From the human T2T-CHM13v2.0 reference genome, Homo sapiens, in the NCBI RefSeq assembly GCF_009914755.1, contig NC_060928.1: DNA of 64,000 bases. One strand, 5' to 3'. Position numbers and translations under genes: made by a program. Below are positions 6,596-54,872 of the stretch, piece by piece. The notes under the pieces were generated by a model, which was given only the letters and a program-made list of their open reading frames with translations, made no database searches and was not told the DNA's origin. Each line of letters starts with the position of its first letter. Positions within the stretch are counted from its first letter, which is position 1.

Positions 6596-6859
6596 GAAAA
6601 CCACAGGGAAATAAGACTTTGAGTTTGGAGAAGAATAAGAGAGCATTATAAAGTGATAAAACCTAAACATGGTTCATTAGGAAAAAGTGACTGAAATTCT
6701 AATCCTGTGCAGGTCCAGGATTATGAGGGAAGCAAAAAGAATGCCACTGACACTAGAATAGAGTATTTCCTGCTGGGCATGGTGGCTAATGCCTGTAATC
6801 CCAGCACTTTGGGAGGTGGAGGCAGTGGATCGCTTGAACCCAGGAGTTCGAGATCAGCC
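6596..6859 (+). repeat. Inverted duplication 1, left copy (unique ~176 bp plus Alu 5' end)
   Basis: Reverse complement of 8707-8968; by-eye alignment of the unique part shows 6 substitutions and one 2-bp indel. Confidence 0.95.
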
Positions 6860-7041
6860 TGGCCAACATGGTGAAACCCCATCTTTACTAAAAATACAAA
6901 AATTAGCCAGGGGTGGTGGCTCACGCCTGTAATCCCAGCTGCTGGGGAGGCTGAAGCATGAGAATTGCTGGAACCCAGGGGGCAGAGGTTGCAGTGAGCT
7001 GAGATGGCACCACTGCACTCCAGCCTGGGCGACAGAGACTG
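6772..7041 (+). mobile_element. Alu, probably chimeric (J-like 5' end, S-like remainder)
   Basis: Shares GGAGGCAGTGGATC and GAGATCAGCC variants with the Alu at 8468-8794; no TSD visible. Confidence 0.85.
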
Positions 7042-8467
7042 TCTCAAAAAAAAAAAAAAAATTTATGTGCTGTCACAACTGCAAGGCATGAGGCCTCTCT
7101 CCCTCCCTGGCGTTTCCACATGGCACTTCCCCTTGTGTTTGACGTGTCAGCCTCTGTCCTCATTGCAAATCTCCTCTGCCTTCCAGCCTCAGTCTCTGTA
7201 CAGACTCTGCCCTCCTCATCTTGGCTGCAGGGTTGTCAGGTTCTTTGGCCTTCTCATCTCACAGCCACAGGAGCGTTTGTGAACTTGTGATCCTCCCTAG
7301 TTCCCGGCTCTGGCAGTGGGTGCGGGGAGGCCTCAACACAGCCAGCCCCTTGGTTACTCTACTGTGACTACCTCCTTTTGGCTCCGGGCTCGGTGACCTA
7401 CTTCCAAATACCAAATTGCAGCATGGGACTTTTCTGATTTTCATTTGCCCCCTCAAATCTATGAGGTTTCTATGATCTCTTTCATCTCTTCTCTTTCTCG
7501 TGAGTTACAAGGGAGTAGGGGCGTACCGGGTGCCTCAGAAGGAACCCAAGTAGCAATTTCACCATAGTCTCATCCCTCCAAATTTCTCCTAAAAAATATT
7601 CCCTCAATCCAGGATTTTTACTACTTCCCTCTGTGGAGAGAAACCCCATGTCTAACATCTGTCTCACCCAAGAGCATGCTGGAAAATTCTTTGGCTTCAA
7701 AGTCCAAAGATTGATTCTGGATATTGAATGTCCAGCTAAGGGAAACCAAGAAAAGACTTTTCTGTTTTCTCCTTCAGGTACCTGGTCCTTGAAATTGAAA
7801 CCTAGACACTTATGCCTATTGTTTTTCTTGTAACTTTCAAAATCTATTTTGATGTCAAAATGGAACAATGGTTTTTTTGTTATCCATCGAGTTCTGCCCT
7901 TCTCAAGAAGTATGGATGGCTCAACCTCAGCAGATGGAAAGCTACAGGGAAATAGGAAGTACCATCTCAAGGAAAAGAAATGTGCCTCATTAGAAATGTC
8001 CGATGCATTTTTTGTTCTCAGTCGTTCTTGCAACCCAAGGACTGAGTTGCAAGTCAAAGTGTTTATCAATGTTAAGTTTGAACCAAAGACAAAAATCTCT
8101 GTTGTTCTTTCCTTCTTAGTAGTTCTTAAACTACTTATATATTAGAACGCTGCTGTGGAGGAAGAAATATTTTTAGTTTTTCATACGGAAAAGTTTTAAG
8201 ACACACATTTCCATGGAGTATATTTTTCCCACAGTGTTTTCCAAAGCCTCTGTCTTTGGCTCAGCATTTCTCCAACTGGAAGTTTCACCAATGAGTCCCC
8301 TGTGTTCCTGTGGTCCGCTGTAGGGCTACTCTGGAGTCTCTGGCTTATTAGCATGTAAAACTCGGAGATTCTTTCCCTCCAGTTAAAGTCATATCCACAG
8401 GATTTACATGAAATATATTATATACGGCACCTTTCTTTGTAAGGTAGCTAGAAAGTGGCTTTGGGAA

Positions 8468-8794
8468 TTTTTTTTCTGAGACGAGTCTCTCTCCGTCACC
8501 CAGGCTGGAGTGCCATGGTGCAGTCTCAGCTCACTACAACCTCCGCCTCCCGGGCTCAAGCGATTCTCCTGCCTCAGCCTCCTGAGTAGTGGGGACTACA
8601 CGCACACACCACCACGCCCAGCTATTTTTGTTGTTGTTGTTTGTTTGTTTTTTTTTTTTTTGTAGTTGTTTGTTTTGGTAGAGACGGGGTTTCACCATGT
8701 TTCCGCGGCTGATCTCAAACTCCTGGGCTCAAGTGATCCACTGCCTCCGCCTCCCAAAGTGCTGGGATTACAGGCGTGAGCCACCGTGCCCGGC
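8468..8794 (-). mobile_element. Alu (AluJb-like) with expanded middle A-rich linker
   Basis: Reverse-strand dimer with GGGCTCAAG motifs. Confidence 0.93.
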
Positions 8795-8968
8795 AGGAAA
8801 TATTCTATTCTAGTGTCAGTGGCATTCTTTTTGCTTCCCTCATAATCCTGGACCTGCACAGGATTAGAATTTCAGTCATTCTTTCCTAATGAACCATGTT
8901 TAAGTTTTATCACTTTGTAATACTCTCTTATTCTTCTCCAAACTCAGTCTTATTTCCCTGTGGTTTTC
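8707..8968 (-). repeat. Inverted duplication 1, right copy (probable donor)
   Basis: Reverse complement of 6596-6859. Confidence 0.95.
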
Positions 8969-52353: not shown

Positions 52354-52642
52354 GGCCGGGTGTGGTGGCTCACACCTGTAATCCCAACAGTTTGGGAGGC
52401 CAAGGCGGGCAGATCACGAGGTCAGGAGTTCAAGACCAGCCTGGCCAACATGGTGAAACCCCATCTCTACTAAAAATACAAAAATTAGCTGGGCTTGGTG
52501 TCAGGTGCCTATAATCCAGCTACTCAGGAGGCCGAGACAGGAGAATCGTTTAAACCCGGGAGACGGAGGTTGCAGTGAGCCGAGATTGCGCCATTACATC
52601 TCAGCCTGGGTGGCAGGGTGAAACTCTAAAGAAAAAAAAAAA
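52354..52642 (+). mobile_element. Alu (AluSg-like)
   Basis: TSD AAGAGTTCCCAAAG(C/T)GAG. Confidence 0.95.
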
Positions 52643-53392
52643 GAGTTCCCAAAGTGAGACCATTACTCAAAAATTTGAGATGGGAGGCTAAATTGCCCCT
52701 GCTGTGTATTTAGAGGGTTAGTATTGAATAGGTCAACAAGCATTTCCTAAGTCTCTAGGCTGAATTTCTAATACGGTTTCTTAGTAACCATTCTCTTAAA
52801 GAATGTGAGATTTGAGGTAAGCTTTGCTTTAAGGGAGGGACAGATGTGAACCCTAATACTGGTTAGAAGGACATAAGAGAAGAGAGAAAGTAAAACTATT
52901 TAAGGAATTTTTTTCTCTCATTTAAGGCCCAAAGCAGCCTTTCCTTTTCTCGGTCCAATCCGATGCTTAAACTTGCCTGAATTTCCTCTGGGGTTAAGTT
53001 CAAACTAATTTTCACTGTTCTAAGCATGCAGGGCTCTTGCACAACTTCATGCCTCTGTGCGTGTGTTTCCACCAGTTGGAATGCCCTTTCTCCCACCCAC
53101 CCCTAAACTCGTACATGCTTATCCTTGCAGAGACCTCCTTTGTAAACCAAGAAGCCCCCGACTCCCCTGTTACAGAGGTAATTGCTTTGGCCTTACCTGT
53201 TTTACCTCCTGGTAAGTTACAGCACTTAGCACCTTGCAATTAGAGGTCATAGATTTCCCTGCTTCTCTAGAATGTGAGATTCTTAAAGGCAGGGATTTTA
53301 TCTCATTTATTAGATTTGTATCCCATGTACCTGACCTAGTATCTAGCACAACTTAGTAGATATCAATTAATGTTCATTGTATAGTCCTTTGA

Positions 53393-54089
53393 TGATGCGG
53401 TTTGGCCCTGTGTCCCTACCCAAATCTCATATCAAATTGTAATCCTGATGGGAGGTAATTGAATCATGGGGGCGGACGTTCCCTTTGCTGTTCTCATGAT
53501 AGTGAGTGAGTTCTCACAAGATCTAGTTGTGTATTTTATTATTTATTTATTTTTTGAGTTGGAGTTTCACTCTGTCACCCAGGCTGGAATGCAATGGTGC
53601 AATCTCAGCTCACTGCAACCTCTGCCTCCTGGTTCAAGTGATTTTCCTGCCTCATCAGCCTCTCAAGTAGCTGGGATTACAGGCATGTGCCACCACGCCC
53701 GGCTAATTTTGTATTTTTAGTAGAGACAGGGTTTCACCACATTGGTCAGGCTGGTCTCAAACTCCTGACTTCAGATGATCTGCCCACCTCCGTCTCCCAA
53801 AGTGCTGGGATTACTGGTGTGAGCCAGTGAGCCCAGCCAAGATCTCGTTGTTTAAAAGTGTGTGGCACTTCCCCCTTTGCTCTCTTTCTCTCTCCAACTC
53901 CACCAAGGTAAGACGTGCTTGCTTCCCCTTCACCCTTCCACCATGACTGTAAGTTTCCCAAGGCCTCCCAGCCATGCAGCCGTGCTTCCTGTACAGCCTG
54001 TGGAACTCTGAGTCAATTAAACCTCTCTTCTTCATACATTACCCAGTCTCAGATAGTTCTTTATAGCAGTGTGAGAACAGACTAATACA
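53393..54089 (+). mobile_element. MST MaLR solo LTR interrupted by an Alu (53534-53838, minus)
   Basis: TGATGCGGTTTGG...ACTAATACA termini; perfect 5-bp TSD TTTGA; Alu TSD AAGATCT(A/C)GTTGT. Confidence 0.93.
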
Positions 54090-54872
54090 TTTGAGATTCA
54101 ATCACCTATCATTTTTAACATACAGAATCAGGCTGCTATTCACTTATTATTGTTTGCTCTTAACTGAGTAAAAATGTAACGTAGATGGTCTGCCTTCAGC
54201 TGGGAGAAGCGGTCGTTTAGCATAGATCCTTTTTATCAAGCAGTAGTTACATTTGCAGAGTACTTTTTAAAAGCAAAATATTTGTTCTTATTTTCCTGGA
54301 GTTTACAACCTATTTGGGCTGACAAGATGTATAGAGATGTGTGTGTATATATATATACACATATATGTGTATAAACATGTATATGCACACACATTTACAC
54401 ACATACATATATGTAGTTTCACTTATTCTTTCAACAAATGCATATGGAGTGCTAAACACGTGCCCAGAGCTGTGCTGGGTGCTGGCACCCGAGATGCGGA
54501 CTCCACGGTGCCTAACCACAACACTTCAATACCCAGGGCGATGAGAGCCAGAAACAAAAGAAGTAAGATAACTTCTTGGTAAGCAGGAGGAAGGGGAAAA
54601 GATTAGAGGAGGGTAAAGAAAGCAACCTAAGTAAAAGTTAGAAGGTACAAATGGGCATGGAATTTGCAGGAGTGGTGAGGAGATTCATGAGACTAAAGGC
54701 TTTAGGGAGAAATTTGGGGGCCAATAAAAAGCTATGAGTACACACACACACGCACACACACACACACACACACACAGTGAATGATACTCAGTTTAACCTA
54801 ATTCAACAAGCACTTCCTGATTCCTGACTGTATAGAAAGTACTGTGCAACATATTGAGACTCATTCAGAGAT

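What the first reader, a model, noticed from the sequence alone, without database searches (positions are those of the whole stretch)
6596..54255. Three independent inverted 'copy-back' insertions with the same polarity and a 2-4 kb reach
Seen: three unrelated inverted duplications involving unique DNA within 48 kb (about 264, 105 and 445 bp; nearest edges about 1.8, 3.5 and 2.6 kb apart). In two cases the upstream copy clearly overwrites part of a retroelement (AluJ junction, L1 3' UTR) while the downstream copy is in intact context; the third fits the same reading via a chimeric Alu. None has a poly(A) tail or TSD, so L1 retrotransposition is unlikely. Established: template switching (FoSTeS/MMBIR, polymerase theta templated insertion, SDSA-type repair) produces local inverted templated insertions with small deletions. 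Inference: events of different ages with the same donor-downstream geometry suggest a long-lived regional bias, e.g. fixed germline fork direction or transcription direction. With n=3 the shared polarity has a 1-in-4 chance probability, so this is a hypothesis.
Basis: partly seen in the sequence, partly recalled or inferred. Interest (0 to 1): 0.8.

Follow-up and report, generated by a model that had tools for sequence, protein, structure and literature searches.

The report
Three old inverted patch-copies in PALLD intron
Three short stretches of a human PALLD intron were each copied backwards into a spot a few thousand bases upstream, an already described by-product of DNA break repair, and three cases are too few to show a regional directional bias.

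Summary
Pairs 6596-6893/8673-8968, 31070-31167/34681-34778 and 50083-50852/53486-54271 are inverted, 92-95% alike, and their non-repeat parts occur only twice in the whole genome. The upstream copy is the derived one: firmly for pair 2, which sits inside an Alu, and pair 3, which sits inside an L1 3' UTR while the downstream copy holds a complete LTR with its 5-bp target duplication; moderately for pair 1, a chimeric Alu. None has a poly(A) tail or target duplication.

These match "repair-mediated duplications" (Pace et al. 2009, PMC2671141): 824 human cases, donor under 5 kb away, up to 619 bp.

The added inference is not supported:
- Ages do not differ significantly (p=0.49).
- All three fall in the 18-42 Myr period when such events peaked.
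- 200 kb of PALLD flanks hold no further inverted pair but two direct ones.
- Shared polarity has a 1-in-4 chance.

The background density could not be measured, and no outgroup genomes were available. This is an ordinary, known kind of event and of low interest.

The parts
6596..6893 (.). P1 acceptor (derived) copy: 176 bp of unique flank plus the Alu left monomer, inverted relative to the donor
   Evidence: The flank is found only twice in the genome.
6772..7060 (+). Chimeric Alu at the P1 acceptor. The left monomer was copied from the downstream Alu. The right monomer is its own.
   Evidence: The left monomers differ at 5.9% of non-CpG sites and the right monomers at 17.6%. The left monomers share 6 derived states.
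8673..8968 (.). P1 donor: left monomer of the downstream Alu plus its 5' flank
   Evidence: The right monomer of this Alu carries the subfamily states linked to the shared left monomer.
8468..8792 (-). Downstream Alu of P1, internally coherent, with an expanded A-rich linker
30922..31300 (+). Alu interrupted by the P2 insert. Its pieces end at about 31062 and resume at about 31172, and about 11-30 bp of Alu are missing.
   Evidence: 100 Alu copies in the 314-kb pool match both flanks collinearly, with a median of 11 bp unaccounted for.
31070..31167 (.). P2 acceptor copy (98 bp core; weaker similarity runs about 10 bp further on each side)
34681..34778 (.). P2 donor, in unique DNA
   Evidence: Only two places in the genome. 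No repeat lies within 34300-35200 in the pool.
49694..50082 (+). L1 end left of the P3 insert: last codons of ORF2, then about 90 bp of 3' UTR
   Evidence: The translation matches residues 1238-1274 of 1275 of L1 ORF2p (E=1.2e-4). The L1 homology ends at 50082-50083.
50083..50852 (.). P3 acceptor copy: inverted copy of 54271-53486. It carries a later Alu (50173-50464) flanked by a 14-bp target duplication.
50853..50895 (+). Continuation of the same L1 3' UTR to its A-rich end. 50-89 bp of L1 are missing at the insert.
   Evidence: Both L1 pieces are collinear in 3 other L1 copies, in L022, L023 and L025.
53486..54271 (.). P3 donor: part of a solo LTR plus about 180 bp of its native flank. It carries a later Alu (53534-53838) with its own target duplication.
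53393..54089 (-). Complete solo LTR with TG...CA ends and a perfect 5-bp target duplication TTTGA at 53388-53392 and 54090-54094. It is truncated in the upstream copy.
   Evidence: The family has 5819 first-look candidates.

Best explanation
Each pair is an independent, old germline 'repair-mediated duplication' (an inverted dispersed duplication with an insertion-site deletion).

How it works (inferred):
- A break or stalled 3' end arose in an A/T-rich part of a retroelement: the Alu mid-linker in P1 and P2, and an A-rich run of an L1 3' UTR in P3.
- The free 3' end paired with the opposite strand of DNA 1.8-3.5 kb away. In P1 it used about 120 bp of homology with an inverted Alu. In P2 and P3 it used at most a few bases of microhomology.
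- It copied 100-460 nt, then let go and rejoined the other side of the break.
- Between 11 and 90 bp of the retroelement were lost in the process.
- This is synthesis-dependent strand annealing, or an equivalent replicative template switch.

Later, one Alu inserted into each arm of P3.

The shared features (inverted orientation, donor on the downstream side) are most likely coincidence. The similar ages reflect the period 18-42 Myr ago when such events were most frequent in primates.

Shown: the two-copy status, the anatomy, the polarity of P2 and P3, and the absence of poly(A) tail and target-site duplication. Inferred: the repair pathway, the microhomologies, the independence of the events, and chance as the cause of the common polarity.
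For: Unique two-copy DNA.

P2 insert inside one Alu: 100 pool Alus match both flanks collinearly, median 11 bp missing.

P3 insert inside one L1 3' UTR:
- The ORF2p C-terminus lies just upstream.
- Both L1 pieces are collinear in 3 of the 3 other L1 copies that hold both parts, with 50-89 bp missing.
- The P3 donor LTR is complete, with a TTTGA target duplication at both ends. The upstream copy has the LTR truncated and only one TTTGA.

P1 chimera:
- Left monomers are 5.9% apart at non-CpG sites and right monomers 17.6%.
- Both right monomers are equally old, 8.4% and 8.2% from the pool consensus.
- Pool Alus that share the left-monomer CC state carry the downstream Alu's right-monomer state at position 204 in 6 of 7, against 20 of 86 for the rest (Fisher p=0.0017, 16 positions tested).

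No poly(A) tail or target-site duplication at the inserts.

Match to a described class (Pace et al. 2009, PMC2671141; sections 6, 7, 8, 17 read):
- 824 human cases with the donor under 5 kb away.
- Mean length 162 bp, maximum 619 bp.
- None of 39 inspected had a poly(A) tail.
- Microhomology, deletions and filler at the junctions.
- Highest rates 18-42 Myr ago.

With that paper's rate of 2.2e-9 per year, divergences of 5.5-8.2% give about 25-37 Myr.
Against: - No outgroup genome was available, so no empty site was seen. Microhomology and filler cannot be fixed exactly.
- The acceptor deletions here (about 11-30 bp and 50-89 bp) exceed the 1-15 nt range in the sample Pace et al. inspected.
- All three are inverted with the donor downstream: 1 in 32 if both orientation and side are counted, 1 in 4 for side alone.
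- At the catalogue density of 824 per genome, three in 48 kb would be very unlikely (3e-7 per window). Either that catalogue is a small subset or this stretch is enriched.
- Outside the window I found 0 inverted and 2 direct pairs in 250 kb. That gives P(3 or more in 48 kb) of about 0.007.
- The P3 arms look younger than an Alu nested in one of them. Plain neutral divergence does not explain this.
Confidence: 0.65

Rival explanations
1. Regional directional bias. A stable germline fork direction or the direction of PALLD transcription makes a stalled 3' end copy from DNA on the downstream side in inverted orientation. One way this could happen is a leading strand of a leftward fork switching to the lagging-strand template behind it.
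For: - Three of three events are inverted with the donor downstream.
- All lie in one intron transcribed on the + strand (hub annotation).
- The geometry is mechanistically coherent (inference).
- The total skew over 264 kb is only +0.018. This is lower than the intronic sense-strand average I recall (about +0.08, recalled, not checked). It would allow a leftward replication component, but only if PALLD is transcribed in the germline.
Against: - n=3 gives p=0.25 for side.
- The P1 orientation and donor are explained by the nearest inverted Alu.
- 200 kb of the same gene on either side hold no further inverted pair and two direct pairs.
- Ages are not shown to differ, so 'long-lived' is unsupported.
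- The skew is flat and uninformative.
- Pace et al. saw no clustering of such events (passage).
Confidence: 0.1
2. RNA-templated patching. The + sense PALLD pre-mRNA served as template for a reverse transcriptase activity (L1 ORF2p or polymerase theta) that primed from the left-hand 3' end of a break. This gives an inverted copy by construction.
For: - All donors are intronic sequence of the same transcript and all copies are inverted.
- One junction of each event lies in an A/T-rich tract of the kind cut by L1 endonuclease (the motif resemblance is recalled, not tested).
- Pace et al. link the rate of these events to L1 activity.
Against: - There is no poly(A) tail or target-site duplication.
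- An RNA template gives no reason for donors to lie within 2-4 kb.
- The P1 junction uses Alu-Alu homology typical of DNA strand invasion.
- Direct two-copy duplications of the same size class lie nearby.
Confidence: 0.1
3. One complex replicative event (a chromoanasynthesis-like series of template switches) made all three inserts at once.
For: Divergences are statistically indistinguishable (p=0.49). All three share the same geometry.
Against: - The acceptors are 24 and 19 kb apart and each has its own local donor. No other rearrangement joins them.
- P2 differs from P3 at non-CpG sites (8/98 vs 14/434, p=0.04).
Confidence: 0.05
4. Not duplications at all: chance inverted neighbours of interspersed repeats, or small inversions flanked by inverted duplications from staggered breaks.
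For: Part of P3 is an LTR family and part of P1 is Alu.
Against: - The non-repeat parts are two-copy in the whole genome.
- The P3 arms are 94% alike, against 89% or less to other family members.
- Both halves of the host Alu and the host L1 lie directly on either side of the insert in the same orientation, so the segment between the arms was not inverted.
Confidence: 0.02

Closest known systems
[quoted passage not shown]
   Same: - An insert of at least 50 bp inside a transposable element.
- The donor is the only other copy in the genome and lies within 5 kb on the same chromosome.
- Length is within the 619 bp maximum.
- No poly(A) tail.
- A deletion at the acceptor.
- Ages fall in the 18-42 Myr peak.
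   Different: - Acceptor deletions are larger than the 1-15 nt they report.
- The P3 insert itself contains an LTR and a later Alu, and P1 is joined through Alu homology. Their pipeline, as described in sections 6 and 21, would probably have kept only P2.
- Their main text gives no statistics on orientation or donor side.
- Their Table S1 could not be opened here, so I cannot say whether these loci are listed.
'Doublets', short paired local duplications (Thomas et al. 2004, PNAS). Known to me from Pace et al.'s discussion and from recall; the paper is not held.
   Same: Local copy-and-paste of short unique DNA at a distance of about a kilobase.
   Different: Here the copies are 100-460 bp, diverged, and inverted.
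Dispersed duplication with insertion-site deletion, and local templated insertions, in structural-variant catalogues (PCAWG, PMC7025897, search listing and abstract only; the gnomAD-SV class names are recalled)
   Same: The topology: a copy of a nearby segment inserted elsewhere with loss of a few bases at the target.
   Different: Those catalogues describe polymorphic or somatic variants, usually kilobases long. These are fixed, old and sub-kilobase.
Short-range template switching (Loytynoja and Goldman 2017, PMC5453318; Walker et al. 2021, PMC7954356; search listings and abstracts only)
   Same: An inverted copy made by a transient switch to the opposite strand.
   Different: As I recall, those events are tens of bases long within a similar range and replace sequence in place. 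Here the reach is 2-4 kb and the insert up to 460 bp.
ODIRA and fold-back inverted duplications or triplications (PMC10766186, PMC10766183, PMC3907307; search listings and abstracts only)
   Same: A strand switch between leading and lagging templates gives inverted copies.
   Different: Those give large head-to-head amplifications or triplications that include the intervening DNA. Here there are just two short copies and the DNA between them is unchanged.

Membership tests
Repair-mediated duplication (Pace et al. 2009) | An insert of at least 50 bp interrupts a transposable element whose two pieces are collinear and in the same orientation | tested here: met
   P2: 100 pool Alus span both flanks. 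P3: 3 of 3 L1 copies span both flanks, with the ORF2p end just upstream. P1 meets this only in modified form, as a chimeric Alu.
Repair-mediated duplication (Pace et al. 2009) | The inserted sequence occurs at exactly one other place in the genome | tested here: met
   Whole-genome searches. For the LTR part of P3, the local partner is the best match at 94%, against 89% or less for others.
Repair-mediated duplication (Pace et al. 2009) | The donor lies within 5 kb on the same chromosome and more than 50 bp away | tested here: met
   Gaps of 1.8, 3.5 and 2.6 kb
Repair-mediated duplication (Pace et al. 2009) | No poly(A)/poly(T) tail and no retrotransposition-type target duplication | tested here: met
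   Junction alignments
Repair-mediated duplication (Pace et al. 2009) | Microhomology, deletion or filler at the breakpoints | tested here: inconclusive
   Deletions are shown: about 11-30 bp of Alu and 50-89 bp of L1. Microhomology of 2-4 nt is only suggested, because no empty site is available.
Repair-mediated duplication (Pace et al. 2009) | An empty acceptor site in an outgroup species | not testable with these tools
   No primate genomes are held
L1-mediated retrotransposition or transduction | A poly(A) tail at one end and a 7-20 bp target-site duplication | tested here: not met
   Neither is present at any of the three inserts. By contrast, the later Alus nested in P3 show both.
Inversion with inverted duplications from staggered breaks | The host element is split, with its halves at opposite ends of an inverted segment | tested here: not met
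   Both halves of the Alu and of the L1 flank the insert directly, in the same orientation
Interspersed repeat pair (chance neighbours) | Many copies elsewhere at similar identity | tested here: not met
   As a positive control for the method, a chr10 direct pair was exposed as a repeat family with 972 candidates.

The most novel reading that the evidence does not exclude
This part of the PALLD intron, and by extension many loci, keeps a stable germline asymmetry from fork direction or transcription. Under it, broken or stalled 3' ends are patched by inverted copying from the side already replicated. Fixed repair-mediated duplications would then be fossil arrows of ancestral replication direction. 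This would be testable at once on the 824 catalogued donor-acceptor pairs.
Probability: 0.08. Interest if true: 0.6.

Novelty: new member of a known kind. Interest (0 to 1): 0.2.

Why it matters
Taken one at a time, these are ordinary examples of a known repair by-product in non-coding intron DNA, and nothing suggests a function. They have two modest uses.

First, they show how much of this class a catalogue restricted to transposable elements can miss. Only one of the five two-copy local duplications in this 264 kb would pass its filters as I read them.

Second, they raise a cheap genome-wide question that the main text of Pace et al. leaves open. That question is whether orientation and donor side of such captures track replication or transcription direction.

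Tried and rejected
- **Random genomic background.** I drew 32 blocks of 50 kb with a seeded generator. No proper density estimate was possible.
- **Chr10 control pair.** The single low-copy direct pair there was an interspersed repeat family (972 candidates). The pool-depth proxy for uniqueness therefore needs genome confirmation. That confirmation was done for all PALLD pairs.
- **Polarising P1 by a repeat spanning the outer junction.** None was found.
- **Polarising P1 by the age of the two right monomers.** They are equal, 8.4% vs 8.2%.
- **P1 Alu target duplications.** Read by eye, the downstream Alu looked slightly better. This is too weak to use.
- **Polarising the two direct pairs in the flanks.** Both copies of each lie in unique DNA.
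- **Short exact-match screen (18-mers) for further small events in 264 kb.** It found only the known pairs, one low-complexity chance hit at 19745/22035, and two short-range repeats outside the window.
- **Nucleotide skew as a stand-in for germline fork direction.** S=+0.018, uninformative.
- **Pfam on L1 ORF fragments.** 0 families. The PDB sequence search identified L1 ORF2p instead.
- **PALLD and common fragile sites.** 3 papers hold both terms and none is about this (listing only).
- **Earlier findings of this scan.** Closed.
- **Supplement of Pace et al.** Closed.
- **Thomas et al. 2004.** Not held.
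Full report
**The observation**

- P1: 6596-6893 against 8968-8673. It consists of 176 bp of flank with 6 mismatches in 174 aligned, plus an Alu left monomer with 15 in 120, of which 6 in 102 are at non-CpG sites.
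- P2: 31070-31167 against 34778-34681, with 8 mismatches in 98.
- P3: 50083-50852 against 54271-53486, with 25 mismatches in 456 once one later Alu in each arm is set aside.

Whole-genome searches with the non-repeat parts find only the two local copies. About 250-290 bp of P3 belongs to an interspersed LTR family with 5819 first-look candidates. The local partner is 94% identical, while the 38 other full-length matches scored are 82-89% identical.

In the window, a screen for low-copy local pairs (at least 85% identity, at most 10 kb apart) finds inverted pairs only and no direct ones. P1 appears at a looser cut-off.

**Anatomy and polarity of P3**

- The downstream copy contains a complete solo LTR, 53393-54089. 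It has TG...CA ends and a perfect 5-bp target duplication TTTGA at 53388-53392 and 54090-54094. It is interrupted by an Alu that has its own target duplication. The family name (MaLR, THE1-like) is my recollection and was not tested.
- The upstream copy holds only about 290 bp of that LTR, one TTTGA, and about 180 bp of the LTR's native flank.
- The upstream copy sits inside an L1. The frame just upstream encodes residues 1238-1274 of 1275 of L1 ORF2p. L1 homology stops at 50082 and resumes at 50853.
- Three other L1 copies (in L022, L023, L025) carry both pieces collinearly with 50-89 bp between them.
- The upstream copy is therefore an insertion into an L1 3' UTR that removed 50-89 bp.
- The Alu at 50173-50464 has a 14-bp target duplication that is present once in the donor. 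It entered after the copy was made.

**Anatomy and polarity of P2**

The upstream copy lies between the A-rich linker and the right monomer of one Alu. One hundred Alu copies in my 314-kb pool match both flanks collinearly, with a median of 11 bp of Alu unaccounted for and up to about 30 bp. The donor lies in DNA with no repeat match. I recognise the host Alu as J-type only from memory.

**Anatomy and polarity of P1**

- Both arms lie at the 5' end of an Alu. The upstream Alu is on the + strand at 6772-7060 and the downstream Alu is on the - strand at 8468-8792.
- The left monomers differ at 5.9% of non-CpG sites and share six derived states. The right monomers differ at 17.6%, as two unrelated Alus would. 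One Alu is therefore a chimera, joined in or near the A-rich linker.
- The ages of the right monomers are equal (8.4% vs 8.2%), so age does not tell which Alu is the chimera.
- Subfamily linkage gives some signal. The 7 pool Alus that share the CC state of the common left monomer carry the downstream Alu's state at right-monomer position 204 in 6 of 7, against 20 of 86 in the rest (p=0.0017, 16 positions tested). At position 163 the figures are 6 of 7 against 42 of 87.
- This gives moderate support for the downstream Alu being intact and the upstream one overwritten.
- The orientation and donor of P1 are then explained by strand invasion through the homology of two inverted Alus.

**What it is**

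None of the inserts has a poly(A) tail or target duplication. The host elements are not split by an inversion.

These features match the repair-mediated duplications of Pace et al. 2009 (PMC2671141). I read the abstract and sections 6, 7, 8, 11, 14 and 17. They report:

- 824 human inserts of at least 50 bp within transposable elements, each with a unique donor less than 5 kb away.
- A mean length of 162 bp and a maximum of 619 bp.
- No poly(A) tail in 39 of 39 inspected.
- Microhomology, deletion and filler at the junctions, attributed to synthesis-dependent strand annealing.
- The highest rates 18-42 Myr ago, in step with L1 activity.

With their rate of 2.2e-9 per year, divergences of 5.5-8.2% give about 25-37 Myr, which falls inside that peak.

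**The added inference**

- Ages are not shown to differ. The chi-square test gives p=0.49 for all sites and p=0.09 for non-CpG sites. P2 against P3 gives p=0.04.
- The 200 kb of PALLD on either side of the window contain no further inverted two-copy pair. They contain two direct ones, at window coordinates -36421/-32328 and 66233/67820. Both are unique in the genome.
- One random 50-kb block of chr10 contains no two-copy pair. Its one candidate was a repeat family.
- Within the 264 kb, three events spanning 48 kb or less has p=0.09. Some three of the five events doing so has p=0.51.
- The shared donor side has p=0.25.
- At the catalogue density of Pace et al., three in 48 kb would be very rare (3e-7 per window). 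That catalogue is a lower bound restricted to transposable elements, and as I read its filters it would have kept only P2.
- Skew over 264 kb is +0.018 and says nothing clear about fork direction.
- My searches found no paper that relates the donor side of such captures to fork direction. The main text of Pace et al. does not analyse orientation.

**An open point**

The P3 arms differ at 3.2% of non-CpG sites, summed over both lineages. The Alus that entered each arm after the copy are 11.2% and 8.3% from the consensus of 98 pool Alus, whose median is 7.9%. Their private differences are 5.0% and 2.1%, and 5.0% against 1.6% per lineage gives p=0.015. Gene conversion between the inverted arms may have slowed their divergence, so P3 may be older than it looks.

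**Verdict**

The structures are real and the mechanism class was read correctly. The kind is already known. The regional-bias idea is neither supported nor testable here.

Noticed in passing
window 10892-11004 and 11159-11267: A fourth inverted pair: 113-bp arms, 82% alike, 154-bp spacer. A whole-genome search finds only itself, so it is an older short-range inverted duplication rather than a transposon family. Its polarity is unknown.
   Followed up: partly
L026:2233-2402 and 3820-3981 (window coordinates 66233-66402 and 67820-67981, just past the window end): A direct two-copy local duplication, 170 bp, 86% alike, 1.4 kb apart, unique in the genome. It is the same size class as the finding but in the opposite orientation. 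It could not be polarised.
   Followed up: partly
L022:3579-3677 and 7672-7773 (window coordinates -36421..-36323 and -32328..-32227): A direct two-copy local duplication, about 100 bp, 83% alike, 4.0 kb apart, unique in the genome.
   Followed up: partly
window 40091-40856: A 766-bp minisatellite of 32 copies of a 24-bp AT-rich, partly self-complementary unit, 97% matches. It lies between pairs 2 and 3. It is a possible hairpin-forming fork obstacle, which was not tested.
   Followed up: no
L032, about 4868-5011 (window coordinates 128868-129011, outside the window): A perfect 55-bp inverted repeat with a 35-bp spacer in low-copy DNA.
   Followed up: no
window 50083-50852 vs 53486-54271: The arms of pair 3 are more alike than the ordinary-aged Alus nested in them would suggest. 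This may reflect gene conversion between the inverted copies.
   Followed up: partly
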